Source: an uncultured Candidatus Saccharibacteria bacterium (lineage in GTDB: Bacteria; Patescibacteriota; Minisyncoccia; Phycocordibacterales; VMEP01). Taken from it: a stretch of DNA of 64,000 nt. The DNA is taken from NCBI GenBank assembly GCA_964579635.1, contig CAZOFV010000001.1, positions 5,622-69,621 of the forward strand, given 5' to 3'. The notes beneath the pieces were generated by a model. That model searched no databases. It saw only the letters and a program-made list of their open reading frames with translations, and was not told where the DNA came from. Below are positions 1,642-57,561 of the stretch, piece after piece. A program made the translations under genes and the position numbers. The stretch's first letter is position 1, and the number at the start of each line of letters is the position of its first letter.

Positions 1642-1717
1642 CCGCCCATAGCTCAGTTGGTAGAGCAGCTCCCTTTTAAGGAGAGGGTCGCAGGTTCGAC
1701 TCCTGCTGGGCGGACCA
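1642..1717 (+). tRNA. tRNA-Lys (anticodon UUU), CCA encoded
   Basis: Folded by hand: 7-bp acceptor stem CCGCCCA/TGGGCGG, D-arm GCTC..GAGC, anticodon loop CTTTTAA, T-arm GCAGG TTCGACT CCTGC, discriminator A plus CCA. Confidence 0.85.
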
Positions 1718-8471: not shown

Positions 8472-8508
8472 AAAAAAATAAAAGGGGGGCATAAAATGCC
8501 CCCCTCTT
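8472..8508 (-). terminator. Rho-independent terminator of the lipoprotein gene 8558..9580
   Basis: Minus-strand reading: GAGGGGGGCAT ttt ATGCCCCCCT followed by TTTTATTTTTTT. Confidence 0.6.
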
Positions 8509-8557
8509 TAAGCAAAGAACTGCCTATTTTTTGGGTAAAATCTTGCAATCACGAGGA

Positions 8558-9580
8558 CTACAAGGTTCTTCCACTAAAGGAGGTCTGTGGCAAAGTTCTG
8601 CCACTAAATGACGACTGTGGCAAAGTTCTGCCACTGATCGTCGGACCAGAAGATGACGGTGGTAAAGTTCTGCCGGTAAGCACCGGTGCGGTTGACGACG
8701 GGGGTAAGGTTCTGCCCGTAATCGTCGGACCAGCAATGTAGGCTTGTGCTGGTTGGACAACATATGGAGCGCCAATAACAGCGCCACTATTTCCAACCCA
8801 TCCGCTAAAGCCGACGTAGCCGCCACAACCGTCATAACAGCCACTGCTTGCAACCGCGACGGGCGTTTCGGTGATAACTTCCCGCATCACCACTCGGCTC
8901 TTGCGGTACCACTCGCTTTCAGGCGCTTTGACGATCTTCGTCTCCTTGGGAGGAGACTGTGGCACCGGCGGTTCTTCTGGAACTTCTGCCAATGTCTCTG
9001 CCGCCCTGATGACGAAGCCGGCGAAATTGCCACAATCACGCACGCGGAACAGCTTGTATTCGACGCCCTTGAAAGAAGTCGAGTACACGTCGGCGATATG
9101 TTCTTCGCCTTCTGCCCATGCCGCAACGGTGTTAACCCGTACCTTCGCTTTGTTGCCTTTCAGCAAACGGCCGAACGCCATCCAGTCAAACGTGTCGCCA
9201 CGCTTGAGGGTCATTTCTGCCCCCACCTTCTTTTCGAAATTCACGAGAAGGGCTTTCTTTACTTCAGTTGGCCATCCGCTTTGTGCAAGCGCCTGCTCGG
9301 CGTTCCCGATATACGGGTCGCCACCGACCTTGCGCCAGCAAAGATACCCTGCTGTGTTTTTGGGCGCACCAGTGCAATCCTTCAAGGAATACTTCCCTTC
9401 GCGGACAGCAATCCTGGTGCGGACAACAACAGCCGGAGCATCGTTTTTCGAAACCACGACAGTTGCTTCCTTCTCAGGAGCCTTCGTCGTCGCGACGTTC
9501 GTTTTGGTTTCCATTCCAGCACAAGCCGAAAGGAAGACCGCCATGAACAATGATGCCAACAAATTCAATTTGCGTGTCAT
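8558..9580 (-). CDS. Lipoprotein of unknown function (GC-rich islet gene 1) with C-terminal S(F/I)SGRTLPQ(S/T) peptide repeats
   Basis: Signal peptide plus lipobox FLSAC. Perfect SD AAAGGAGGTG 5 nt upstream of the ATG. GC content far above the flanking DNA. Confidence 0.7.
   Translation of the reverse strand: MTRKLNLLASLFMAVFLSACAGMETKTNVATTKAPEKEATVVVSKNDAPAVVVRTRIAVREGKYSLKDCTGAPKNTAGYLCWRKVGGDPYIGNAEQALAQSGWPTEVKKALLVNFEKKVGAEMTLKRGDTFDWMAFGRLLKGNKAKVRVNTVAAWAEGEEHIADVYSTSFKGVEYKLFRVRDCGNFAGFVIRAAETLAEVPEEPPVPQSPPKETKIVKAPESEWYRKSRVVMREVITETPVAVASSGCYDGCGGYVGFSGWVGNSGAVIGAPYVVQPAQAYIAGPTITGRTLPPSSTAPVLTGRTLPPSSSGPTISGRTLPQSSFSGRTLPQTSFSGRTL
8566..8742. repeat. Five tandem 30-42-nt units (GGCAAAGTTCTGCCACT...) inside the 3' end of the lipoprotein CDS
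   Basis: Direct repeats visible in the DNA. They encode the repeated decapeptide SGRTLPQSSF. Confidence 0.6.
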
Positions 9581-9668
9581 GATGACACCTCCTTTTTAAT
9601 TTTCAATTGGCGAAATTGCCAAACTGATTTCTAGATTAAGAATATCATATTTTTATTATTCTGTCAAT

Positions 9669-9704
9669 ATAAAATAAAAAGGGGTACGATTTCTCGTACC
9701 CCTT
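9669..9704 (-). terminator. Rho-independent terminator of the lipoprotein gene 9723..10202
   Basis: Minus-strand reading: AGGGGTACGA gaaa TCGTACCCCT followed by TTTTTATTTT. Confidence 0.6.
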
Positions 9705-9722
9705 GTTTGCTCACTTGAGCAC

Positions 9723-10202
9723 CTAGCAAAGGCTAGGAAACATTGACCAGGTAGACTGGCACGGCCGTGGCGCAGACTGCTGTCCGCGGTAAGGCTGGAT
9801 TTGCCCTTGGTAACCCTGATAGCCAGTGGCACCTGCGCTTTGGCTTCCGGCAACACCGCTATATGGCGCCGCTGCTTGGGCGCAAGCTTCTGGTCGACCG
9901 CCATTTTCAAGACAAGCAGCGATTATTTCCGTTGCGGCCAAACGTCTGGCTGCATCAGCCCGGCCGACCGCAGACCCGATTTCACTCGGAATCCGTGGCT
10001 TGGTTACCATCGCTTGCCTGCTTCCGTCAGAGCGAATCACAGACGTTGCTGGACGACACTCTTCGGTGCCGTCAGCACGAATCCGACATTCCTCCTCAAG
10101 GAGAATCGGTTCATGCGACACTGTGCGAGCTACTTGCTGGCCCCCACACCCCGCGACGAGAATGGATATCATCGCCACGAAAAACAGACTGGTTCTGGAC
10201 AT
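9723..10202 (-). CDS. Small Cys-containing lipoprotein of unknown function (GC-rich islet gene 2)
   Basis: Signal peptide plus lipobox LVAGC. Perfect SD AGAGGAGGA upstream. GC-rich. Confidence 0.6.
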   Translation of the reverse strand: MSRTSLFFVAMISILVAGCGGQQVARTVSHEPILLEEECRIRADGTEECRPATSVIRSDGSRQAMVTKPRIPSEIGSAVGRADAARRLAATEIIAACLENGGRPEACAQAAAPYSGVAGSQSAGATGYQGYQGQIQPYRGQQSAPRPCQSTWSMFPSLC

Positions 10203-10523
10203 GATAGTCCTCCTCTGTAAAAAAACGATTAAAAAGAATAGTTAAACCTGTTTATATTATTAGCATATCTTAAACAAAAAGTCAAGCTATCCGTAATATC
10301 CCCATACCTTGGAATCACTTACTAATTGTGTGTGTTTTGTATTAACAAGCCAAAAATACCATTAAAAAACATTGCGCAGTGCGACGGCACGAGAATAGTA
10401 AATTTTCAGCAGAAAATTATACGTGTTTTTTTGTGGTATTTTAAAAAAAGATATGCGTGTTTTCAGAAACAAAAGCTAAAATACCCCTTTGGAATAAGCT
10501 GAAAATAAAGTATTATTTGATGA

Positions 10524-48039: not shown

Positions 48040-48150
48040 ATTTGTATATTCGTGTAATTATATCATAAAAAAAATAAAGGTATCAGATTTTTCTTTCAAA
48101 AATAGATAACGTGCTTGGGTGACTGTCGTGGTAAAATATTTTACGACATC

Positions 48151-49074
48151 ATGACTCAAGATTTAAAGAGTTTAAAACAGCAATTTCTTGAATATATTGA
48201 AATTGAACGTGGAAGAAGTTTAAAAACTGTTCGTAATTACGATGCTTATCTTGAGCGTTTCCTTACTCAAACAAACGCTAAATATCCAAAAGATATAACC
48301 GATGACTCAATAAGAGAATTTCGTCTTTGGTTGAATAGACAAGAGGGTCGCCGTGAGCGCGGGATGAGTGCAGGAACGTTAAAAAAGAAAACCCAGAACT
48401 ATTATTTAATTGCTTTACGTATTTTTCTTAAATATTTAATGAAAAGAGGGATTGAAGCTCTTTCCCCTGATCGTATTGAGCTTGCAAAGGTAGCAGAGAG
48501 GTCGCTTGATCTTATTTCTTTAGATGAACTAGAGCGCTTACTTAAAGCTCCCGATGGCGGTGATTTAAAAAGCTTGCGAGATAAGGCTATTTTAGAATTA
48601 CTTTTCTCAACAGGGCTTCGTGTTTCGGAGTTATGTTCTCTTCCCCGCGATATCGACCTTCGTAAAGATGAATTTTCGGTACGAGGAAAAGGAGAAAAAG
48701 TACGAGTTGTTTTTCTTTCCGATTCGGCAAAAGAAGCAATTAAAAAATATTTAGCAAAGCGAGGAGATATGGAGGATGTTCTTTTTATTGGAACAGGAAG
48801 CGTTGGAAAAAAGAAAGGAGAAATAACACACCTAACGACCCGTTCGGTTGAAAGAATCGTTGCACAATATGCAATTAAGGCCGGTATCTCAAAAAAAGTA
48901 ACCCCACACGTTATCAGACACTCATTTGCCACAGACCTACTTGGTAATGGGGCAGATATTCGTTCTGTTCAAATGATGCTTGGGCATGCCAGTATTTCAA
49001 CCACACAGATTTACACCCACGTGACAGACAAGGCCCTCAGAGAAATACATAAGAAGTTCCACTCTAAAAAATAG
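48151..49074 (+). CDS. Tyrosine site-specific recombinase of the XerC/XerD family
   Basis: C-terminal catalytic region HVIRHSFATDLL...LGHASISTTQIYTHV. Start placed at the internal MTQDLKSL. Confidence 0.85.
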   Translation: MTQDLKSLKQQFLEYIEIERGRSLKTVRNYDAYLERFLTQTNAKYPKDITDDSIREFRLWLNRQEGRRERGMSAGTLKKKTQNYYLIALRIFLKYLMKRGIEALSPDRIELAKVAERSLDLISLDELERLLKAPDGGDLKSLRDKAILELLFSTGLRVSELCSLPRDIDLRKDEFSVRGKGEKVRVVFLSDSAKEAIKKYLAKRGDMEDVLFIGTGSVGKKKGEITHLTTRSVERIVAQYAIKAGISKKVTPHVIRHSFATDLLGNGADIRSVQMMLGHASISTTQIYTHVTDKALREIHKKFHSKK

Positions 49075-50272: not shown

Positions 50273-51742
50273 TTATTTTACCCAGTGTTTTTTTCTTATC
50301 TCAGATACTTCCTTTGATTCCTCCTTCTCTTTTTTAGCCTTTCCTTCTTCTCCTAATTTCTTTAACTCTTCAATAGATAGTTTTATCATTTCAATTGAAC
50401 GTTTTTCTAGGTATTCAGTTGTGTTTCTTTCTGGTTCATCAAGTACTTCCTCAAGGAGGGCGTGTAAAACATAACCGATTTTAGGACCTGGAGTTTCATG
50501 TGTAACTTCCATAATACGTTTCCCGTCTATTTTTAGCATGGCAACCGATATCGGCGCACGCATCGCCTCTTCGATCATAGACTCATATTTTCTAAGCCGA
50601 TACGGGGTCTCTTTTGGCCTTCCCATGCCGATACGGTCGCAAGCACGAAGTTTCATTAAATCCCAAACATGTTCTGGTCCAACATTTTTCACGATACGCC
50701 TTACTGCCGATAAGGTTATTTTATCTACGTCTGAAAAAAATAAATGGTAACGCACTAGCTTTGAAACAACATCTACAATTTCTCGCGGAAAACGCATTCT
50801 TTCTAGAATTTTTTTTGTTACACGTGAACCAACTACGTCATGCCCATAGAAGGTATAATCTTTCTTTTCGTCAGACCAACGACGTGTTTCAGGCTTAGAA
50901 ACATCATGAAATAGAGCAGAAAGTCTCACGTGTAACGGCCATTCACGATCTGCTGAGTGTTGCAACGCCCTTAGGTTGTGCTCCCAGACATCATAGATAT
51001 GATCACCATTTTGTTTAACATTAATCCCAGCCTCTGTTTCAGGTGAAACATATTTAAGAATACCAAGTCGATTAGCTAAAACTATCCCAACCATTGGGTT
51101 TGGAGACATAATCAATTTAATGAATTCATCACGAATACGCTCTTGGGCAATTTTACCGAGGTTTTTAACGTTGTTTTCTAAGGCTTTTTCAGTCTCGCCG
51201 TTAATTATGAAACCTAATTCAGTGGCTAATCTGATAGCTCTGAGGACCCGAAGAGCATCTTCGGCAAATCTTTCCTCTGGGTTACCTACAGCTCTAATAA
51301 CTTTGTCCTTTATATCTTTTTGTCCGTTATACGGATCAACAATTTGTCCTTTAGTAATATCGTAGGCGATTGCGTTGATGGTGAAGTCTCGTCGCTTTAA
51401 ATCGTCTTCTAGTTTTTTACTAAAAACAACTGAATCTGGCCTACGGTAGTCGCTATACTTCCCCTCAATTCTGTATGGAGTTATTTCAACTACTTTTAAA
51501 GATTCATCTTCAGTATTTTCATTTACAACACCAACTGTTCCATACTCGTTTTCGTAAAATGTTTTTGGAAATATTTTAATAATATCTTCTGGTCTTGCGT
51601 TAGTTGTGAAATCCCAATCTTTTGGTTTTCTTCCTGCCAATACATCACGAACACAACCTCCAACTAGGTATGCCTCAAAACCAGCTTTTTCCAAAGATTC
51701 GCTTATGGCGCCTATGTTTTCTGGAATATTTTCCGGTTTCAT
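50273..51742 (-). CDS. cca: CCA-adding tRNA nucleotidyltransferase with HD domain
   Basis: GGCVRD.L, the DxD nucleotidyltransferase motif, and a central HD motif. Confidence 0.85.
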   Translation of the reverse strand: MKPENIPENIGAISESLEKAGFEAYLVGGCVRDVLAGRKPKDWDFTTNARPEDIIKIFPKTFYENEYGTVGVVNENTEDESLKVVEITPYRIEGKYSDYRRPDSVVFSKKLEDDLKRRDFTINAIAYDITKGQIVDPYNGQKDIKDKVIRAVGNPEERFAEDALRVLRAIRLATELGFIINGETEKALENNVKNLGKIAQERIRDEFIKLIMSPNPMVGIVLANRLGILKYVSPETEAGINVKQNGDHIYDVWEHNLRALQHSADREWPLHVRLSALFHDVSKPETRRWSDEKKDYTFYGHDVVGSRVTKKILERMRFPREIVDVVSKLVRYHLFFSDVDKITLSAVRRIVKNVGPEHVWDLMKLRACDRIGMGRPKETPYRLRKYESMIEEAMRAPISVAMLKIDGKRIMEVTHETPGPKIGYVLHALLEEVLDEPERNTTEYLEKRSIEMIKLSIEELKKLGEEGKAKKEKEESKEVSEIRKKHWVK

Positions 51743-51806
51743 TGTTTAAAAATTTTACTCCAGGTTTTGATATTTTCCTAATTTTCCTTATGATATATGG
51801 GATTAA

Positions 51807-51880
51807 GCCCCCGTAGTGAAATGGATATCACGACAGTCTTCGAAACTGTTATTCCAGGTTCGAATCCTGGCGAGGGCACA
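51807..51880 (+). tRNA. tRNA-Arg (anticodon UCG), no encoded CCA
   Basis: Hand fold: acceptor GCCCCCG/CGAGGGC with one mismatch; anticodon stem ACAGT/ACTGT, loop CTTCGAA; T-arm CCAGG TTCGAAT CCTGG. Confidence 0.7.
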
Positions 51881-51883
51881 TGA

Positions 51884-52035
51884 AGTGTGCTTTCGCAGCA
51901 AGCCAACTGCTTGGCTTGCGTCAGGATTCGAAAGCCGGAGCATGTCGCTCTGCGACAGCGAGGCGGGGTCGCAGGTTCTTTGTGTATGAGAATGTTTTCA
52001 TTCGAAGACACTTAGAAACCTGTGACCGATTCTAT
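51884..52035. repeat. tRNA-associated hairpin repeat, copy A
   Basis: Hairpins GCAAGCCAA ctg CTTGGCTTGC and GTCGC tct GCGAC, the core GAGGCGGGGTCGCAGGTTC, and a terminal GTGACCGATTC motif. Confidence 0.5.
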
Positions 52036-52108
52036 AGATTAACAATAAATATAAAAACATTTTTATTTGAACTTATCCTAATCTCTGTTAAAATACTTCG
52101 ATAAAAAT

Positions 52109-52179
52109 GCGGGTATGGTTTAGTGGTAGAACACGTCCTTGCCAAGGATGAGACGGGAGTTCGATTCTCCCTACCCGCA
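52109..52179 (+). tRNA. tRNA-Gly (anticodon GCC), no encoded CCA
   Basis: Acceptor GCGGGTA/TACCCGC, anticodon loop TTGCCAA, T-arm GGGAG TTCGATT CTCCC. Confidence 0.85.
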
Positions 52180-52189
52180 CAGCGAACAA

Positions 52190-52390
52190 AGTGAGCAAGC
52201 GTGTAGAGCAAGCCAACTGCTTGGCTTGCGTCAGGATTCGAAAGCCGGAGCATGTCGCTCTGCGACAGCGAGGCGGGGTCGCGACCTTCGTTGCGGAGAT
52301 TTATCGTAGCAGAAGAGTTGTGACCGATTATCTTTGATTTCGGAGTTATTAACGAGTAATCCGTGACCGATTCTCTCTTTCAGGATCTTC
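52190..52390. repeat. tRNA-associated hairpin repeat, copy B, with two trailing GTGACCGATT motifs
   Basis: Near-identical to copy A over about 75 nt. Confidence 0.5.
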
Positions 52391-52646
52391 ACCTTTACGG
52401 ACAATTTTTCACATAAATGAGCATATTTTGTAAAGAGTAATCTTATAAAAATAAGGCTAAAATAGGTCAAAAGTGGGGATAAGTCGGGGGACAATGTTAA
52501 TAAGAGACACTAAAATTGTCCAAGAAAACGACCTTTAAACGCCTTAAAATGGCTTTAAATAAGGGGATATTGTCTTTTTCCACAGAAACTGCTTATAAAG
52601 TTTCACGTGAAACTAAAAAGATGTTTATTTTGATATATAATCATAT

Positions 52647-53066
52647 TTGATGGATTCAAAAGTATTGAAAAACAAGGAGAGACAGCATGTTGGTAGGCTT
52701 GGTGAGGATATTGCTTGTCGTTTTTTAGAAGAAAAAGGTTTTAAGGTTATCGATAGAAACTACAGAAAGTTTATTGGAGAAATAGATATTATTGCCAAAA
52801 AGGACAAAATTTTATACTTTGTTGAAGTAAAAACTGTTTCTCGTGAAAACTTTAAAGAAGGTGAAAGTGGATTGAGTACTCAATATAGAGCTGAAGATAA
52901 TATTCATCCACAAAAGTTAAAGCGCTTAAGTAGAGCAATTAATGCCTATCTTTCAGAAAAAGTGGGAAATGTTGATTATGTTTGGCAATGCGATGCGATT
53001 ATTGTTAATTTATTCACTGCTAACAAGATTGCAAAAGTTAAGTATTTAGAAAATATTTTTGCGTAA
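52647..53066 (+). CDS. yraN: YraN/UPF0102-family predicted endonuclease
   Basis: GEDIACRFL...GEIDIIA...LYFVEVKT signature. Confidence 0.75.
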   Translation: MMDSKVLKNKERQHVGRLGEDIACRFLEEKGFKVIDRNYRKFIGEIDIIAKKDKILYFVEVKTVSRENFKEGESGLSTQYRAEDNIHPQKLKRLSRAINAYLSEKVGNVDYVWQCDAIIVNLFTANKIAKVKYLENIFA

Positions 53067-53124
53067 TTTTTTGTTTTTTGTGATAGGATTGATAAATTGT
53101 CGGATTGGAGGAGGTTTGTTTTTA

Positions 53125-53160
53125 CGGGGTGTAGTATAGAGGTAGTACGTCTGCTTTGGG
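53125..53160 (+). pseudogene. 5' fragment of tRNA-Pro (36 nt, up to the anticodon), a duplicate of the intact gene 75 nt downstream
   Basis: Identical to nt 1-36 of the intact tRNA-Pro, then diverges. Confidence 0.5.
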
Positions 53161-53199
53161 GTTAAGAAGATTTTTCGTTTAGTATTTTGGTTTCATCGT

Positions 53200-53270
53200 C
53201 GGGGTGTAGTATAGAGGTAGTACGTCTGCTTTGGGAGCAGATAGCCCGAGTTCGATTCTCGGCACCCCGA
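53200..53270 (+). tRNA. tRNA-Pro (anticodon UGG), no encoded CCA
   Basis: Acceptor CGGGGTG/CACCCCG, anticodon stem-loop TCTGC TTTGGGA GCAGA, T-arm CCCGAG TTCGATT CTCGG. Confidence 0.85.
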
Positions 53271-53349
53271 CGATGAAACTAAACGATTTTTAGAAATCTT
53301 ATTAACCGGAAGTCCGGGGGACTTCCGTGGAAATTTCCCGAAGAAATTT

Positions 53350-53381
53350 AGATAGCCCGAGTTCGATTCTCGGCACCCCGA
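53350..53381 (+). repeat. 3' fragment of tRNA-Pro (32 nt identical) plus a duplicated downstream flank CAATGTAACTAA
   Basis: Exact copy of the last 32 nt of tRNA-Pro. The flank is similar to that after the intact gene. Confidence 0.5.
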
Positions 53382-53439
53382 CAATGTAACTAAATGGTGT
53401 GTTAGAAACTCTTTGTAATCAGAAGTTCATTATAAACGT

Positions 53440-53592
53440 AACGAAGCACTGTAAGGGGTGAGCAGGCAAAGGGCTTTGCCTGCGTCCGGAATCGAAAGCC
53501 GGAGCGCGACGGCGCGAGGCGGGGCTGCGCAAAAATTTAGTAAAATTTTATGCGTAGCCGATTCTCGGCACCCCGACAATGTAACTAAGTAA
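53440..53592. repeat. tRNA-associated hairpin repeat, copy C, ending in a second tRNA-Pro 3'-end fragment (53558-53576) plus flank
   Basis: Hairpin GCAGGCAAAG..CTTTGCCTGC carries compensatory changes relative to copies A and B. Also has GAATCGAAAGCCGGAGC and a GCAAAAATTTAGTAAAATTTTATGCG palindrome. Confidence 0.45.
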
Positions 53593-53602
53593 CTAAGGTT
53601 TT

Positions 53603-54760
53603 TTAATCTATTTCGTTGAGCAATAAGAACATTAGTGGGATAGATAGATTTTCATGAAAATCTTTTTGAATCAAATCCAAGTCTTGTGAAATAAATGCAT
53701 TTAAGTTTTTTCCGGTTTCATCCTCTATTTTTCTATTGATATGACCAGGTGTAATAGCAAATAATTCTCTGGTGTTTGTTTCTTTTGTTTCTGTGCTTGT
53801 TGTAATAATCCCTTCAAGTTTTCCAGTTGAACGATTGACCACCGCCCCACCAGAAGATCCTTGTTGAGAAAGAATGTTTCCTTCAATTGAAATAATGTCT
53901 AGTAAAGCACCATCATGGAAGTTATATAATTCTTTAATAACCCCAATACTTGAGGTAAGAAAAAGATTTGTTTGAATTGTTACACCACCTAAAAACCCAG
54001 CAGGGTAAGCAGAAATTAAGACAGGAAGGCCACGCAACACATTTTCTGGGTCTATGTTTGGTTCGAGATAGGGGAAGGTGAGTGGTAATTGTTTTCCATC
54101 TGTTGTCCCAACAACACGAAGAAGGGCGAAATCGTCTTCACCTGTGCCAGTTGGCTTTTCTTGTTTGATAACTTTTGAATTTTCGGTTACCCATTTTTTT
54201 GAGACATAGATAGGTTCAATCAAAAAAGCTGGTGAAGCAGGGGAGCCTTGTCTTGCGATACAGGTTATATAATTTTTTACTCCGTAATCACGAAGTAGGA
54301 AGTATTGTCCAATGTGGGCATTTGTTAGGATAACTCCTTTATCGCTAATAAAGACCCCACTTCCCGATAATGGCTTGAAATCGCCACCATTTTGAGTGGT
54401 ACAAAGGATATTAACAATAGTACTGCGGGTTAGTGCGTTCAGTGGTTCAAGAGGGAGAATTTCAAGCGTAACGGTACGTGGGCTTGTTGAGGCGACAATA
54501 ACTGGTTCCGTTTTACTTACGGTTGATGTTTTTAGGTTTTTTGTAGTAGTTGTTGCGATTTTTTTTAATGAGTCTGTGGTTGTTGTTCCTTTTTCTGGGG
54601 AAGATGTAATTTTAGAAGTATTGTTTTCTTCTGTTTTTATAACATTTGGCGAGATTGTTGGTGTTTCTTTTTGGATATTATTTATCGGGAATATTGAAAA
54701 AATTCCAGCAATAATACCAATTAGGGTGTTTCTTAGTGCTGTTTCTATTATTTCAAGCAT
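53603..54760 (-). CDS. Membrane-anchored trypsin-like (S1) serine protease
   Basis: His region ILTNAHIG, DFALLRV, and GSSGGAVVN around the catalytic Ser. N-terminal TM segment. Confidence 0.75.
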   Translation of the reverse strand: MLEIIETALRNTLIGIIAGIFSIFPINNIQKETPTISPNVIKTEENNTSKITSSPEKGTTTTDSLKKIATTTTKNLKTSTVSKTEPVIVASTSPRTVTLEILPLEPLNALTRSTIVNILCTTQNGGDFKPLSGSGVFISDKGVILTNAHIGQYFLLRDYGVKNYITCIARQGSPASPAFLIEPIYVSKKWVTENSKVIKQEKPTGTGEDDFALLRVVGTTDGKQLPLTFPYLEPNIDPENVLRGLPVLISAYPAGFLGGVTIQTNLFLTSSIGVIKELYNFHDGALLDIISIEGNILSQQGSSGGAVVNRSTGKLEGIITTSTETKETNTRELFAITPGHINRKIEDETGKNLNAFISQDLDLIQKDFHENLSIPLMFLLLNEID

Positions 54761-54829
54761 TGATATGTTGTTGTCAGAATAAGTTTACTAAATATTACCT
54801 TATCTGATAATATGTCGGATACGTAGTTT

Positions 54830-54900
54830 GCGGGATTAGTTAAATGGTATAACTCCAGTTTTCCAAACTGGTGTCGGGAGTTCGATTCTCCCATCCCGCA
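54830..54900 (+). tRNA. tRNA-Gly (anticodon UCC), no encoded CCA
   Basis: Acceptor GCGGGAT/ATCCCGC, anticodon loop TTTCCAA, T-arm GGGAG TTCGATT CTCCC. Confidence 0.85.
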
Positions 54901-55037
54901 CACAGTAATACTAGGTAGTACTCAGTCGGACTAAGCACGAAATAGCCAAGAATCCCCAAAGAGGCCCCAATTGTTGCCTCTGTGGCATTTTCTCGCGCCT
55001 TCACCCAGTTCCCCTCAGGTGAGAACATATTCACCAT

Positions 55038-55205
55038 ATGGCACGCGTCACCGTTACCTTCTCGATCTCCCTCCCGCCAGAAATGGCAGAAGAACTTGAG
55101 AAAATTAGAAAGAAGGAGCATCGGACCCGCTCCGAGCTTCTGCGTGAAGCGCTACGTCGATATATTTCCGCCAGATCTCAGGACGTCCCCGCACCTGGGA
55201 TTTGA
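55038..55205 (+). CDS. Ribbon-helix-helix (CopG/NikR-N/ParD-like) DNA-binding protein, 55 aa
   Basis: MARVTVTFSISLPPEMAEELEKIRKKEHRTRSELLREALRRYIS is a classic RHH pattern. It overlaps the longer but unrecognisable ORF 54982..55263, which is in another frame. Confidence 0.6.
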   Translation: MARVTVTFSISLPPEMAEELEKIRKKEHRTRSELLREALRRYISARSQDVPAPGI

Positions 55206-55268
55206 ACTTTCTAAGAAATTCGTTGTCGTTTGCAGTAGGCGGTCTGCTTATGAAAGGGGGTGAGGGAG

Positions 55269-55472
55269 ATGGGATGGTTTGGATGGTCTACTGAAAAGGA
55301 CACAGGAGACGAGGTCAACGTCAAGATGGAAAAGAGTTCGAGTGACGCCTCGCACGTCCATTACATACGTTCTACCGACGGCGACAAAGCCGATCACTCG
55401 CATGTGGTCTATACAAAGGAGTCAGACGGAAGTCGCCACGCACACGGTTATCCGAGTAAGAGCAAGCGCTAA
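55269..55472 (+). CDS. Small His-rich hypothetical protein (about 67 aa; HxH, DHSH and HAH motifs)
   Basis: Strong SD GGGGGTGAGGGAG before the ATG. Immediately downstream of the RHH gene. Confidence 0.4.
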   Translation: MGWFGWSTEKDTGDEVNVKMEKSSSDASHVHYIRSTDGDKADHSHVVYTKESDGSRHAHGYPSKSKR

Positions 55473-55477
55473 CAGTC

Positions 55478-55882
55478 CTACGCCCGCTCCTTAACTGCAG
55501 TACGGTTAAGGAGTGGGCGTATTTGTTCTTCATAACGTCGTTCCAGTCCCTTCCGGCTATCTGTAGTTCCAGATCCTTCAGCAAACAACATCGCGTCCAG
55601 GAAGAAACTGCGGATATTCTCCGCATCAGAATTCTCTCGTTCAGGGAGATCCCATTCCGAAGCGATAAGGCAGACGGTCCCAAGATTCCAATCCGGCTCC
55701 ATCGCCGGGTCGTTGGGAAGGTTCTTCAATATATATTCCACTACCCTAAGCAGTACATCCTCTCCATCACCGGAAAGTCCGATGACATGTAGCAGGTGCG
55801 GGTTGTCATGAGTATCACGCACAATGCGGCCGAATTCCGGTCGAAACGCTGATCGTACGTATTTTGCAAATTGGTGCTCCAT
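55478..55882 (-). CDS. Hypothetical protein (islet)
   Basis: 134-aa ORF in GC-rich DNA; no recognisable motif. Confidence 0.35.
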   Translation of the reverse strand: MEHQFAKYVRSAFRPEFGRIVRDTHDNPHLLHVIGLSGDGEDVLLRVVEYILKNLPNDPAMEPDWNLGTVCLIASEWDLPERENSDAENIRSFFLDAMLFAEGSGTTDSRKGLERRYEEQIRPLLNRTAVKERA

Positions 55883-56047
55883 AGAAAAATACTAACTCTT
55901 GAAACTGAGTTGTCAATTAGCCCTGATCCATAGCGAAAAGCATGGTGTAAGTCACAACCTTTTCAGATATTTGGTAGCAGCGAGAATTGTTTTTAAAAAA
56001 AGGCCACTCCCGTGCTGGGGTGGCCTTTTTTCGGGGTGTCTCCCCGA

Positions 56048-56413
56048 TTAACGAACAAGAGATCGAAGGGTGTGGAATTGCTCGTGTGTTAAGCGCAGTT
56101 CATACCTCAAGCACTGACACGAGATGATTATGCTAATTGGGGTTATGAACAATACCGCTACGACAGAGAACCAGTTACCGGGCTGAACGACGTTGTATCC
56201 GATAAGGACCCCCGATACAGCAAAATATGACAGCGTCCAAACCAACGACGCCGTTAGCCACAAAACCCCACGGAGCCAGCGATCGCGTTCCTTTTGAAGC
56301 AATACACGGAGACGTCGCCTCAACCAAGGACGCTCGTTGAGTTCTTCTTGAATCTCAGCACAGTCTGTAATTCTTGTGATTCTTGAAAGGTGTCCCATTT
56401 TTTCTTCCTCCAC
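56048..56413 (-). CDS. Hypothetical two-TM membrane protein (islet)
   Basis: SD GGAGGAAG upstream. Terminator hairpin AGGCCAC..GTGGCCTTTTTT downstream. Confidence 0.45.
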   Translation of the reverse strand: MEEEKMGHLSRITRITDCAEIQEELNERPWLRRRLRVLLQKERDRWLRGVLWLTASLVWTLSYFAVSGVLIGYNVVQPGNWFSVVAVLFITPISIIISCQCLRYELRLTHEQFHTLRSLVR

Positions 56414-56612
56414 ACATTGTCACTACCCGAGCCAATCTCAGGTGGTAACAAATATGGAAGAGGAAACTTCTCACTACAACATACATCTCCCACCATTTCC
56501 GTCAATGGTACGTTTTTCAGAGTGAATATTTCTTCACTAGGTACTTACTTTTCGATTACGCTATATTCATATAGTGTATGTGAGTTAATTCTTGAATGAA
56601 TAATAACAACCA

Positions 56613-56888
56613 ATGCGAATCGACGATACAGATTATGAAGAAATACTGGCGCTTCTTGATCACAAGAGCGTTCCGTTTGATCCCACTGAAGCCCGACAGG
56701 CAGTCGAGAATTTTGTCGATCTCGTTGAACTCTTGATGCGACCACTTCCACTGCCACCGGCCGGGGAAACTTCGTTCAAGCAGCCTTCTTCAGATCATCC
56801 GGGACCATCTTCTCCGTCGCTTCCACCGACTGAATTAATTCAAGAAGTTGAGGGTCGCGACTCAGGTATCGAGTTCGAACATCGTTGA
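56613..56888 (+). CDS. Hypothetical Pro-rich protein (islet)
   Basis: ORF only. Confidence 0.3.
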   Translation: MRIDDTDYEEILALLDHKSVPFDPTEARQAVENFVDLVELLMRPLPLPPAGETSFKQPSSDHPGPSSPSLPPTELIQEVEGRDSGIEFEHR

Positions 56889-56914
56889 TGAGCCCGCACA
56901 AATTTGAGCAAAGC

Positions 56915-57230
56915 GAAAAGTTGGGCGGGATGAGCAAGCAAACTGCTTTGCTTGCGTGGAGAATCGAAAGCCGGAGCATGTCGCTTTGCGACAGCGAGGC
57001 GGGGTCCGCGAGTACTTATGAGCGAAGCGAATTAGTAACTCGTGACCGATTCCCATCCCGCACAAAGCGTTAAGAAAACATGCTAGGAACAGCATGTTTT
57101 CAGCTTTGTGGGGCGGAGGCTGACGAGCCGAGCCGGGGTCGCGCAAAAATTTAGCAAAATTTTATGCGTGACCAGATTTGAACTATAGCGAAACGAATTA
57201 GTAACTTGTGACCGATTCTCTAATCTTTTT
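56915..57230. repeat. tRNA-associated hairpin repeats, copies D and E (tandem, partially duplicated), each ending in ..AATTAGTAACT(C/T)GTGACCGATTC
   Basis: Copy D hairpin GCAAGCAAA ctg CTTTGCTTGC has compensatory changes against copies A and B. Copy E shares GAGCCGGGGTCGCGCAAAAATTTAGCAAAATTTTATGCG with copies C and F. Confidence 0.5.
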
Positions 57231-57288
57231 CACAAAAAAACAAAAGACCGCACAAATGCGGTCTTTTATTTTTAGAGATGAGTGAATA

Positions 57289-57561
57289 TTATTTCACTGC
57301 GTCTTTCAAACCCTTGCCTGCGCGGAACTTAGGAACGTTCATTGCTGGTACGTTTACTGGTTCGCCAGTGCGAGGATTTCGGGCGGTTCTTGCTGCGCGT
57401 TTCTTTACAACGAATGTTCCGAAACCTGCAACAGAGACCTCATCACCCTTTTTGAGTGATTTTACGATCGAGTCAAACACGGTCTCAACAGCTTGTTCTG
57501 CAGAAACTTTTGTTCCGCCTAACACTCCATGGACTGCGTCGACGATGGCTGCTTTATTCAT
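57289..57561 (-). CDS. hup: HU-family DNA-binding protein
   Basis: MNKAAIVDAV...GFGTF...RNPRTGE motifs. Confidence 0.9.
   Translation of the reverse strand: MNKAAIVDAVHGVLGGTKVSAEQAVETVFDSIVKSLKKGDEVSVAGFGTFVVKKRAARTARNPRTGEPVNVPAMNVPKFRAGKGLKDAVK

What the first reader, a model, noticed from the sequence alone, without database searches (positions are those of the whole stretch)
53125..53592. Partial duplications of tRNA-Pro (one 5' fragment, two 3' fragments with duplicated downstream flank) around the intact gene
There is a 36-nt 5' fragment (53125-53160), a 32-nt 3' fragment (53350-53381) and a 19-nt 3' fragment (53558-53576). Each 3' copy is followed by the same C(A/G)ATG(A/T)AACTAA flank as the intact gene. 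This pattern is what serial integration and excision of tRNA-targeting elements leaves behind (attL/attR scars), yet no integrase or cargo remains here. The spurious 63-aa ORF 53193..53384 overlaps these repeats.
Basis: seen in the sequence. Interest (0 to 1): 0.5.

Follow-up and report, generated by a model that had tools for sequence, protein, structure and literature searches.

The report
tRNA-Pro fragments from nested mini-element insertions
The three tRNA-Pro pieces are real target duplications at a tRNA insertion hot spot, and one belongs to a small structured non-coding element, apparently undescribed, that sits just downstream of tRNA and tmRNA genes in many Patescibacteria (CPR) and Elusimicrobia genomes.

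Summary
All three fragments and the shared flank are real. Related organisms, assembled independently, carry the same junctions, so this is not an artefact.

It is a complete GC-rich structured element (about 53394-53558). Its 3' end is fragment 3.

- **Family:** a 24-base pattern from its core hit at least 117 stretches of CPR and Elusimicrobia genomes.
- **Position:** 133 of 156 copies lie within 400 nt downstream of a tRNA or tmRNA gene on the same strand. All 20 amino-acid specificities occur.
- **Layout:** tRNA, leader hairpin, arm antisense to the tRNA 3' segment, conserved covarying core, then a sense copy of T-loop C56 to the 3' end.
- **This window:** all five tRNA genes are followed by a copy.
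- **No partners:** there is no Rfam match, no conserved neighbouring protein and no literature hit.

Six relatives show empty and occupied states in several combinations. The 5' fragment and the 111-nt unit with fragment 2 are separate, older events. They break in the anticodon loop and stem, and relatives only 73% identical share them.

How the element inserts is inferred, not shown.

The parts
53125..53160 (+). 5' fragment of tRNA-Pro (positions 1-37, ending after the anticodon and G37). It keeps the native 5' flank and, by inference, the promoter context of the gene.
   Evidence: 36/36 identity to 53200-53235. In LiPW_30 (L085) and L124 the same upstream flank abuts the single intact gene. 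In L027 and L125 the fragment has decayed and carries a 63-nt hairpin insert.
53161..53199 (+). 39-nt spacer ('B39'). It is an inverted copy of the trailer 53272-53311 and extends the acceptor stem of the intact gene into a stem of about 45 bp.
   Evidence: Inverted repeat 53186-53206 / 53263-83, 21 nt, 95%. The minimum-free-energy fold of 53120-53390 has z = -6.3. It is 39/39 identical in L027. L122 has compensating changes: gttgtgaag / cttcacaac against gttaagaag / cttattaac here.
53200..53271 (+). Intact tRNA-Pro(TGG) gene.
   Evidence: ARAGORN; Rfam RF00005 67.8 bits.
53272..53349 (+). 78-nt insert ('F1'). Its left part is a diverged copy of the native tRNA-Pro trailer. It then has a hairpin ggaagtcc-ggg-ggacttcc and a ggaaatttcc palindrome. 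With 53350-53381 it forms the 111-nt unit missing from L027, L124, L125 and LiPW_30.
   Evidence: Direct-repeat spacing of 111 nt. 53239-53313 against 53350-53426 is 85.7% over 77 nt. The homologous unit in L122 and L123 has two compensatory pairs in the hairpin.
53350..53381 (+). 3' fragment 1 of tRNA-Pro (positions 41-73), the displaced copy.
   Evidence: D1. In L122 and L123 it is fused at the T-loop to the 3' end of tRNA-Gly(TCC).
53364..53393 (+). Left copy of the 30-nt direct repeat (T-loop C56 to 12 nt past the tRNA end) that bounds the GC-rich element.
   Evidence: The empty site in L125 reads ...ccccgacaatgtaactaa|ggtttttt.
53394..53454 (+). Leader of the element. It resembles the tRNA-Pro trailer of other lineages (F1 here and in L122).
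   Evidence: It is absent from the empty site in L125.
53455..53494 (+). Antisense arm. ggggtg is complementary to the acceptor 3' strand. It is split by a conserved hairpin (53461-53483). tccggaatcg is complementary to the T-stem 3' strand and T-loop.
   Evidence: Pairing with the tRNA 3' segment is general across loci. The column pairing with T-loop position 59 covaries: AU 44, UA 18, CG 10, GC 4.
53495..53558 (+). Conserved core: AAAGCCGGAGC, short hairpin, CGAGGCGGGG, then helix P3 (GGCTGC...GTAGCC) with a variable hairpin.
   Evidence: Covariance model R1: 92.3 bits, E = 3.7e-25 for 53470-53580. P3 is 94% paired, 12 of 15 pairs change on both sides, and one G.U is present in 80 of 81 sequences.
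53559..53588 (+). By inference this is the displaced native tRNA 3' segment. It is the right copy of the 30-nt direct repeat.
   Evidence: The same architecture occurs in about 100 loci.
51906..52048 (+). Family copy downstream of tRNA-Arg(TCG) (51807-51879), long subtype.
   Evidence: R1 67.6 bits; alignment A1.
52216..52346 (+). Family copy downstream of tRNA-Gly(GCC) (52109-52180). Its antisense arm (caggattcg) matches tRNA-Arg, not tRNA-Gly.
   Evidence: R1 59.2 bits; sequence.
56942..57068 (+). Family copy belonging to tRNA-Gly(TCC) (54830-54901). A 2-kb GC-rich island now separates it from the gene. Its sense arm is 57047-57066.
   Evidence: R1 75.3 bits. LiPW_30 has the element without the island.
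57084..57194 (+). Further, variant or partial family copy.
   Evidence: R1 50.7 bits.

Best explanation
**What it is.** The tRNA-Pro gene of this Parcubacteria-type (CPR) genome is a recombination hot spot that carries nested small insertions. Each fragment is a displaced or duplicated piece of the target.

**The youngest layer (53394-53588).** This is an intact copy of a widespread non-coding mini-element that targets the segment from the T-loop to the 3' end of tRNA and tmRNA genes.
- The element brings a replacement copy of that segment, and sometimes a few to about 40 nt of trailer.
- It also brings a leader that is often a terminator-like hairpin, an arm antisense to the segment, and a conserved three-helix core ending in GYRRC.
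- The native 3' segment is pushed to the right end as the 'sense arm', which here is fragment 3.

**Shown.**
- The anatomy and the target association.
- Covariation in the core.
- Direct repeats that always begin at T-loop C56 and vary in length (18, 29, 30 and 55 nt).
- Empty and occupied sites, different subtypes at one tRNA, and tandem arrays.
- No protein gene in cis.

**Inferred.**
- Insertion happens by strand exchange inside the shared T-loop-to-3'-end segment.
- The active form is a folded single strand, or a small circle, in which the sense copy, leader and antisense arm make one long hairpin presented by the core.
- This layout is the same as the CTX-phage attP(+): two inverted target-like sites about 90 nt apart.
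- The enzymes are supplied in trans by the host or a helper.

**The two older layers.** These are the 5' fragment with the 39-nt spacer, and the 111-nt unit with fragment 2. They are separate events with breakpoints in the anticodon loop (37/38) and anticodon stem (40/41). Each can be lost by deletion between its 36-nt or 32-nt direct repeat. The spacer-trailer stem that encloses the intact gene has been kept by compensating changes.
For: **Family and target.**
Hits came from Saccharibacteria, Paceibacterota and other Parcubacteria, Berkelbacteria, Moraniibacteriota and Elusimicrobia.
- The same pattern had no hit in viral contigs.
- The module lies 24-115 nt downstream of a same-strand tRNA in nearly every locus with enough flank.
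- By nhmmer, 133 of 156 copies lie within 400 nt downstream of a tRNA or tmRNA gene. All 20 amino-acid specificities and 3 tmRNA genes are represented.

**Structure.**
- 86% of cells are paired, against 68% after shuffling and 34-45% with the partner slid.
- The covariation score is 0.49, against 0.16 shuffled.
- One G.U pair is present in 80 of 81 sequences.
- In the arm helix P1, G:T pairs outnumber A:C by 78 to 26.
- In most loci the tRNA 3' segment, leader and antisense arm fold into one closed hairpin.
- Where the two target copies differ, the antisense arm fits the left (tRNA) copy more often than the right (45 against 26).

**Mobility.**
- L125 is an empty site. L124, L027 and the window are occupied, with a 30-nt repeat.
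- LiPW_30 carries a different subtype with an 18-nt repeat at the same tRNA.
- Different subtypes also sit at tRNA-Arg and tRNA-Gly(GCC) in the window, L027 and L096.
- Tandem arrays occur in L047 (3 copies, 144-nt period), L120 and L082.
- The copy after tRNA-Gly(GCC) carries an arm that matches tRNA-Arg.
- Decayed copies lie at 1743-1853 and 10347-10445.

**No helper in cis, and not catalogued.**
- Neighbouring ORFs are housekeeping genes.
- There is no Rfam match at E up to 5.

**Older layers.** The states in six relatives are, and their yraN identities are.

**CTX-phage layout.** PMC3089051.
Against: - No free circular or single-stranded form, junction read or transcript was observed.
- No recombinase can be assigned. 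The Xer-type tyrosine recombinase at 48115-49074 is only a candidate.
- Xer sites (dif) do not resemble a T-loop.
- A recombination model does not explain how both arms become re-matched when the element moves to a different tRNA. The mismatched arm of the copy after tRNA-Gly(GCC) shows that re-matching is not automatic.
- The invariant G.U, a tandem G.A motif and covariation are more typical of functional RNA than of a DNA site.
- The preference of the antisense arm for the left copy (45 against 26) is modest.
- For the older layers, a single fold-back template switch explains the 5' fragment and inverted spacer just as well.
Confidence: 0.55

Rival explanations
1. Classical scars. Phages or integrative elements with tyrosine integrases entered tRNA-Pro at the anticodon loop and the T-loop. 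They later lost their integrase and cargo by deletion, leaving attL/attR repeats.
For: - Direct repeats of tRNA segments flank the inserts.
- The breakpoints fall in the anticodon loop and the T-loop. From my own knowledge (Williams 2002, Nucleic Acids Res), these are the classical integrase sublocations; this was not tested here.
- A genuine 2-kb GC-rich island with an RHH gene sits at tRNA-Gly(TCC) and is absent from LiPW_30.
- A tyrosine recombinase gene lies at 48115-49074.
Against: - The inserts are 78-165 nt.
- The one ending in fragment 3 is a full-length member of a conserved family, not a remnant.
- No integrase recurs near about 117 family copies.
- The core pattern has no hit in viral contigs.
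- Antisense arms and a covarying core are not features of a double-stranded attP.
- A displaced 5' half is not produced by integration at the 3' end.
Confidence: 0.12
2. The GC-rich module is a host-beneficial non-coding RNA or cis-acting RNA structure linked to tRNA genes, for example in 3' processing, termination or decoy functions. It is not a mobile element. The tRNA-like arms exist because the RNA must pair with, or mimic, its neighbouring tRNA.
For: - Covariation is strong, with an invariant G.U and invariant single-stranded blocks.
- G:T pairs far outnumber A:C, which indicates folding of the + strand.
- All five tRNA genes in the window, and all 20 specificities across genomes, are followed by a copy.
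- The window and L124 orthologues differ by a compensatory C-G to T-A change in helix P3.
Against: - Close relatives differ in presence or absence and in subtype at the same tRNA.
- Tandem arrays exist.
- Decayed and truncated copies are common.
- One copy has an arm matching the wrong tRNA.
- Many leaders look like intrinsic terminators placed between the tRNA and the module.
- The family is spread across CPR and Elusimicrobia with near-identical core blocks.
- Right-hand arms decay.
Confidence: 0.18
3. For the two older layers only. The 5' fragment with the inverted spacer arose from one fold-back template switch during replication or repair, in which the nascent strand copied the trailer backwards and re-annealed through the acceptor stem. 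The 111-nt unit arose from unequal crossing-over. No element was involved.
For: - The spacer is an inverted copy of the trailer.
- GG/CC microhomology lies at the first junction, and acceptor-stem complementarity at the second (sequence).
- The left part of F1 is homologous to the next trailer copy, 85.7% over 77 nt including the fragment.
- All observed states are interconvertible by deletion between direct repeats.
Against: - L122 and L123 may carry a second, older 5' piece ending at the same anticodon-loop position. That points to a site-specific process.
- The spacer is 39/39 identical between the window and L027, although the yraN genes are 86% identical. That fits exchange or constraint better than one old accident.
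Confidence: 0.3
4. Assembly artefact: mis-joined or collapsed repeats.
For: Short-read Logan contigs of the same strain break inside the repeats.
Against: Homologous junctions are found in independent assemblies of related organisms: L027, L122, L123, L124 and L125. L004 reads through the left junction of the 5' fragment.
Confidence: 0.02

Closest known systems
CTX-phage type IMEX elements (folded single-stranded attP recombined by host XerCD)
   Same: - Two copies of the target-like site in opposite orientation are separated by a spacer of about 70-100 nt, so that a single strand folds into a hairpin that mimics the target (PMC3089051).
- The integrated order is target copy, element body, inverted copy, spacer, target copy.
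- Tandem arrays occur.
- The element encodes no recombinase.
   Different: - The target is the T-loop-to-3'-end segment of any tRNA or tmRNA gene, not dif.
- The spacer is a conserved, covarying three-helix core.
- The elements are 110-200 nt with no genes at all.
- Xer dependence and a single-stranded form are unproven.
Genomic islands and prophages integrated in tRNA or tmRNA genes by tyrosine integrases
   Same: - The element carries a replacement copy of the tRNA 3' segment.
- The native segment is displaced as a direct repeat.
- T-loop and anticodon-loop breakpoints occur, tmRNA is also a target, and serial accretion happens at one gene.
   Different: - There is no integrase and no cargo.
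- One conserved core serves all tRNA specificities.
- An obligatory antisense arm is present.
MITEs and REP/BIME-type small palindromic repeats
   Same: They are small, non-coding, multi-copy, hairpin-forming, must be mobilised in trans, and often sit next to terminators.
   Different: - The paired arms are copied from the target and differ from copy to copy.
- The flanking repeat is 18-55 nt and always starts at T-loop C56.
- Position and orientation relative to tRNA genes are strict.
Integron attC sites
   Same: They are recombination sites defined by a conserved folded structure with variable stem sequence, and cassettes can be arrayed.
   Different: - No integron integrase or attI lies nearby.
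- There are no R/L boxes.
- Long invariant single-stranded blocks are present.
- The elements are linked to tRNA genes.
Group I introns in Patescibacteria tRNA genes (PMC13011429)
   Same: They occur in the same phylum and are structured RNA elements associated with tRNA genes.
   Different: - Those introns lie inside the anticodon loop (position 35/36) and match Rfam intron models.
- The present elements lie outside an intact gene, are much smaller and match no Rfam family.

Membership tests
tRNA-integrating island or prophage (tyrosine integrase) | Direct repeats of a tRNA 3' segment flank the insert, and the intact gene is at one end. | tested here: met
   There is a 30-nt repeat around 53394-53558 and a 32-nt repeat around 53272-53349.
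tRNA-integrating island or prophage (tyrosine integrase) | An integrase gene lies inside or next to the insert. | tested here: not met
   The inserts are 78-165 nt. No recombinase recurs within 3.5 kb of about 117 family copies. The nearest tyrosine recombinase (48115-49074) is about 4 kb away and has Xer-type architecture.
tRNA-integrating island or prophage (tyrosine integrase) | Relatives show empty and occupied sites. | tested here: met
   L125 is empty. L124 and L027 are occupied. LiPW_30 carries a different insert.
CTX-phage type IMEX (folded ssDNA attP) | Two inverted target-like sites about 90 nt apart can form a hairpin. | tested here: met
   The antisense and sense arms are separated by a 64-100-nt core. 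The arms pair and covary.
CTX-phage type IMEX (folded ssDNA attP) | The target is the chromosome dimer resolution site dif, and recombination is by XerC/D. | tested here: not met
   The target is the tRNA or tmRNA T-loop-to-3'-end segment. The enzyme cannot be tested with these tools.
CTX-phage type IMEX (folded ssDNA attP) | A single-stranded circular replicative form exists. | not testable with these tools
   No reads or small circles were accessible. None of the short contigs examined has terminal overlaps.
MITE | Constant terminal inverted repeats and a fixed-length target-site duplication. | tested here: not met
   The arms change with the tRNA. The repeat is 18, 29, 30 or 55 nt long.
Any Rfam 15 RNA family | A covariance-model match at or near the gathering score. 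| tested here: not met
   Only tRNA matched at the gathering score. Nothing overlapped the modules at E up to 5 over 51700-57400.
Group I intron in tRNA | It interrupts the gene and matches an intron model. | tested here: not met
   The gene is intact and the element lies downstream.
Integron attC | An IntI integrase and attI lie nearby, with R''/L''-L'/R' boxes. | tested here: not met
   No such gene appears among the neighbours, and the motifs are absent from the consensus.

The most novel reading that the evidence does not exclude
The GC-rich module is a new class of gene-less, structure-guided mobile element, or the RNA of one. It specifies its insertion site by carrying a base-paired copy of the T-loop-to-3'-end segment of its target tRNA or tmRNA on a conserved three-helix scaffold. 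It can be re-templated to any tRNA and relies entirely on host or helper enzymes. It has spread across Patescibacteria and Elusimicrobia, possibly as folded single-stranded DNA.
Probability: 0.3. Interest if true: 0.85.

Novelty: new variant of a known kind. Interest (0 to 1): 0.68.

Why it matters
- **Genome reduction.** CPR bacteria have tiny, streamlined genomes, yet here every tRNA gene in 64 kb drags a structured 110-200-nt passenger, and the same passenger occurs in another phylum.
- **If mobile.** It would be an unusually economical way to target the most conserved sequences in a genome without encoding a recombinase. The scaffold carries a swappable target-matching helix.
- **If a host RNA.** It would be a widespread uncatalogued RNA linked to tRNA genes.
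- **Annotation.** These elements create tRNA pseudo-fragments, long palindromes, assembly breaks and spurious ORFs such as 53193..53384. Annotators of CPR genomes should expect them.

Tried and rejected
**The 2-kb island as cargo of the module: rejected.**
- The island (54903-56892) has its own 8-nt repeat CCCGCACA.
- It sits between tRNA-Gly(TCC) and a resident mini-element.
- It is absent from LiPW_30 but present in L125.

**A protein partner in cis: none found.**
- All-against-all clustering of ORFs within 3.5 kb of the modules gave only housekeeping genes.
- The island ORFs gave only an RHH_1 match.
- The island's 134-aa protein has homologues only in close relatives.

**Known RNA families.** Rfam gave nothing at the gathering score or at E up to 5. 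By eye I compared the core with group II domain V, RNase P CR-I, SRP, tmRNA and small ribozymes, and found nothing convincing.

**Free forms.**
- Short contigs carrying modules have no terminal overlaps.
- Viral contigs had no hit for the core pattern or for the Pro flank.

**Outer split tRNA with an intron.** I considered reading the 5' and 3' fragments this way. It is rejected because positions 38-40 are missing and the anticodon stem cannot reform (sequence).

**L045.** Methylase genes lie upstream of a module there, but no link between them could be shown.

**Literature.** Searches for the motif strings and for tRNA-flanking elements in CPR found no description.

Full report
**1. The observation**

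ARAGORN and Rfam place an intact tRNA-Pro(TGG) at 53200-53271. The repeat finder confirms three partial copies:
- a 36-nt 5' copy at 53125-53160, 36/36 identical;
- a 3' copy at 53350-53381;
- a third copy whose identity starts at 53559.

In the Rfam alignment:
- the 5' copy is positions 1-37 and stops after the anticodon and G37;
- the first 3' copy starts at the third base of the 3' anticodon-stem strand (position 41);
- the third copy starts at C56 of the T-loop.

The 30-mer CGATTCTCGGCACCCCGACRATGWAACTAA occurs three times, against 0 expected. The minus-strand 63-aa ORF exists and lies antisense to the tRNA.

**2. What lies between fragments 2 and 3**

The interval contains a GC-rich block in an AT-rich genome. 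Similar blocks follow tRNA-Arg(TCG) and tRNA-Gly(GCC), and one lies beyond tRNA-Gly(TCC). All are on the + strand.

Hits came from Saccharibacteria, Paceibacterota and other Parcubacteria, Berkelbacteria, Moraniibacteriota and Elusimicrobia. There were none in viral contigs.

In almost every locus with enough flank, the block lies 24-115 nt downstream of a tRNA gene on the same strand. With a profile, 133 of 156 copies lie within 400 nt downstream of a tRNA or tmRNA gene. All 20 specificities and three tmRNA genes are represented.

**3. Anatomy of the family**

Printing the copies in one orientation shows this order:
- the tRNA;
- a leader, often a long terminator-like hairpin;
- an arm antisense to the tRNA's T-loop, T-stem 3' strand and acceptor 3' strand, sometimes split by a conserved hairpin;
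- (A/T)TCG-AAAGCCGGAGC;
- a variable hairpin;
- CGAGGCGGGG;
- helix P3 (GGYNRC...GYNRCC) enclosing a second variable hairpin;
- CGA plus a sense copy of the tRNA from C56 to its 3' end, sometimes with trailer.

The evidence for structure on an 81-sequence alignment is strong:
- 86% of cells pair, against 68% after shuffling and 34-45% with slid partners.
- The covariation score is 0.49 against 0.16.
- P3 is 94% paired, with 12 of 15 pairs changed on both sides.
- One G.U pair is present in 80 of 81 sequences.
- The pair opposite T-loop position 59 switches among AU, UA, CG and GC.

In the arm helix, G:T pairs outnumber A:C by 78 to 26, which indicates that the + strand folds. The tRNA 3' segment, leader and antisense arm fold into one closed hairpin in most loci. 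Where the left and right target copies differ, the antisense arm fits the left copy more often (45 against 26).

A covariance model (R1) scores the window's copies as follows:

| Window position | Bits or E-value |
|---|---|
| 53470-53580 | 92 bits |
| 56942-57068 | 75 bits |
| 51906-52048 | 68 bits |
| 52216-52346 | 59 bits |
| 57084-57194 | 51 bits |
| 1743-1853 (behind the tRNA at 1642) | E = 5e-5 |
| 10347-10445 (remnant) | E = 8.5e-4 |

All five tRNA genes in the window are therefore followed by a copy.

**4. Not catalogued, and no partner**

- Rfam gives nothing beyond tRNA.
- ORFs around about 117 loci cluster only into housekeeping families.
- Motif strings and topical searches found no paper.
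- The Patescibacteria tRNA group I introns (PMC13011429) are a different thing. They sit inside the anticodon loop.

**5. Evidence for insertion and turnover**

Relatives of the Pro locus all have yraN, tRNA-Pro and the protease gene in the same order. Their yraN identity to the window is 93% for L085, about 86% for L027 and L124, and about 73% for L122 and L123.

| Relative | State of the tRNA-Pro locus |
|---|---|
| L125 | 5' fragment and spacer; gene followed directly by caatgtaactaaggtttttt (empty 3' side) |
| L124 | Single gene plus the short-subtype element, bounded by the 30-nt repeat |
| L027 | As L124, plus the 5' fragment and spacer |
| LiPW_30 (L085) | Single gene plus a long-subtype element with an 18-nt repeat |
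| L122, L123 | The window's full inner arrangement |

Further signs of turnover:
- tRNA-Arg and tRNA-Gly(GCC) carry different subtypes in the window, L027 and L096.
- Tandem arrays occur.
- The copy after tRNA-Gly(GCC) has an arm that matches tRNA-Arg.
- Repeat length varies (18, 29, 30 and 55 nt), but the repeat always starts at C56.

**6. The older layers at tRNA-Pro**

- The 39-nt spacer (53161-53199) is an inverted copy of the trailer (53272-53311). It extends the acceptor stem.
- L122 and L123 keep this pairing through compensating changes.
- The 111-nt unit (F1 plus fragment 2) is a diverged copy of the tRNA 3' part and trailer. It is absent from L027, L124, L125 and LiPW_30.
- Every state can be derived from another by deletion between the 36-nt or 32-nt repeats.
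- The native 5' flank is now attached to the 5' fragment. I infer that the fragment and spacer are transcribed as a long leader, and that the spacer-trailer stem insulates folding of the real tRNA.
- I cannot decide between anticodon-loop site-specific events and a fold-back template switch.

**7. Mechanism**

I commit to insertion by strand exchange within the shared T-loop-to-3'-end segment. In this model a folded single strand or small circle carries the sense copy, leader and antisense arm as one hairpin on the conserved core, and the enzymes act in trans.

- The integrated order matches that predicted for a CTX-phage-like folded attP (PMC3089051).
- The model explains the fixed left boundary, the variable right boundary, the tandem arrays, the element-borne leaders and the decay of right arms.
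- It does not explain how the arms are re-matched on a new tRNA.
- The RNA-like features keep a functional-RNA reading alive.

**8. Corrections to my own earlier ideas**

I first took the 2-kb GC-rich island after tRNA-Gly(TCC) as cargo of the module. It is a separate insertion with its own 8-nt repeat. It lies between the gene and a resident mini-element, is absent from LiPW_30 and is present in L125.

**9. Verdict**

- The 'nothing remains' part is wrong, and the responsible agent for fragment 3 is a widespread, apparently undescribed structured mini-element.

Noticed in passing
window 54903-56892: A GC-rich island (about 49% GC against about 37%) lies between tRNA-Gly(TCC) and its resident mini-element. 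It is flanked by an 8-nt direct repeat CCCGCACA (54895-54902 and 56893-56900). It encodes an RHH_1 protein (55038-55205) and three ORFs with no family match. It is absent from LiPW_30 and present in L125.
   Followed up: yes
window 8496-10245 and 10347-10445: A second GC-rich island (52% GC at 9-10 kb) carries two minus-strand ORFs (340 aa with a lipoprotein-like N-terminus, and 159 aa) that have no Pfam match. A decayed module remnant follows it (R1 E = 8.5e-4). No tRNA is detected beside it.
   Followed up: partly
window 1642-1717: ARAGORN calls this tRNA-Stop with anticodon TTA. The loop can also be read as CTTTTAA, giving anticodon TTT (tRNA-Lys), which looks more likely. A terminator hairpin and a weak module copy (1743-1853) follow it.
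   Followed up: partly
window 52216-52346: The module after tRNA-Gly(GCC) has the T-stem-complementary arm of tRNA-Arg (caggattcg) and a core almost identical to the copy after tRNA-Arg 300 nt upstream. It looks like a local copy that was not re-matched to its new tRNA.
   Followed up: partly
window 51807-51879; L027 6091-6162; L096 7344-7415: tRNA-Arg(TCG) has a C.A mismatch in the acceptor stem at different positions in the window (3' strand CGAGGGC) and in L027 and L096 (CAGGGGC), against the same 5' strand GCCCCCG. This is what replacement of the 3' strand by element-borne copies from different sources would give.
   Followed up: no
L122 about 800-830 and L123 (reverse strand): The tRNA-Pro 3' fragment is fused inside the T-loop (gagttcgattctc) to the 3' end of tRNA-Gly(TCC). 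This implies recombination between the T-loops of different tRNA genes and loss of the DNA between them. A possible second, older 5' piece (tacgtctgcgtgggg) lies further upstream.
   Followed up: partly
L027 7342-7404; L125 8437-8500: A 63-nt perfect-stem hairpin is inserted in the D-loop of the displaced 5' fragment. This is another small palindromic insertion at the same locus.
   Followed up: no
L027 7680-7760; L096 7750-7810; L085 2190-2250: These are double-core variants. A hairpin and a second, diverged half-core (GACGGAGGCTGACGAGCCGAGNNGGGGTCGC) are inserted after CGAGGCGGG. The same variant half-core occurs in the window at 57110-57140.
   Followed up: no
window 48115-49074: This is a tyrosine recombinase with Xer-type architecture (Phage_integrase plus an N-terminal SAM-like domain). 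It lies 2.7 kb upstream of the tRNA cluster and is a candidate trans-acting enzyme, but nothing links it to the elements.
   Followed up: partly
L025, L057 and one other locus: Modules also follow tmRNA genes (three cases by ARAGORN -m), so the target is the shared T-arm and acceptor 3' segment rather than tRNA identity.
   Followed up: partly
L071 (JBAXGJ010000327.1): One hit lies on a 1.9-kb, 62% GC contig binned as Actinomycetes. It is either mis-binned or marks a wider host range.
   Followed up: no
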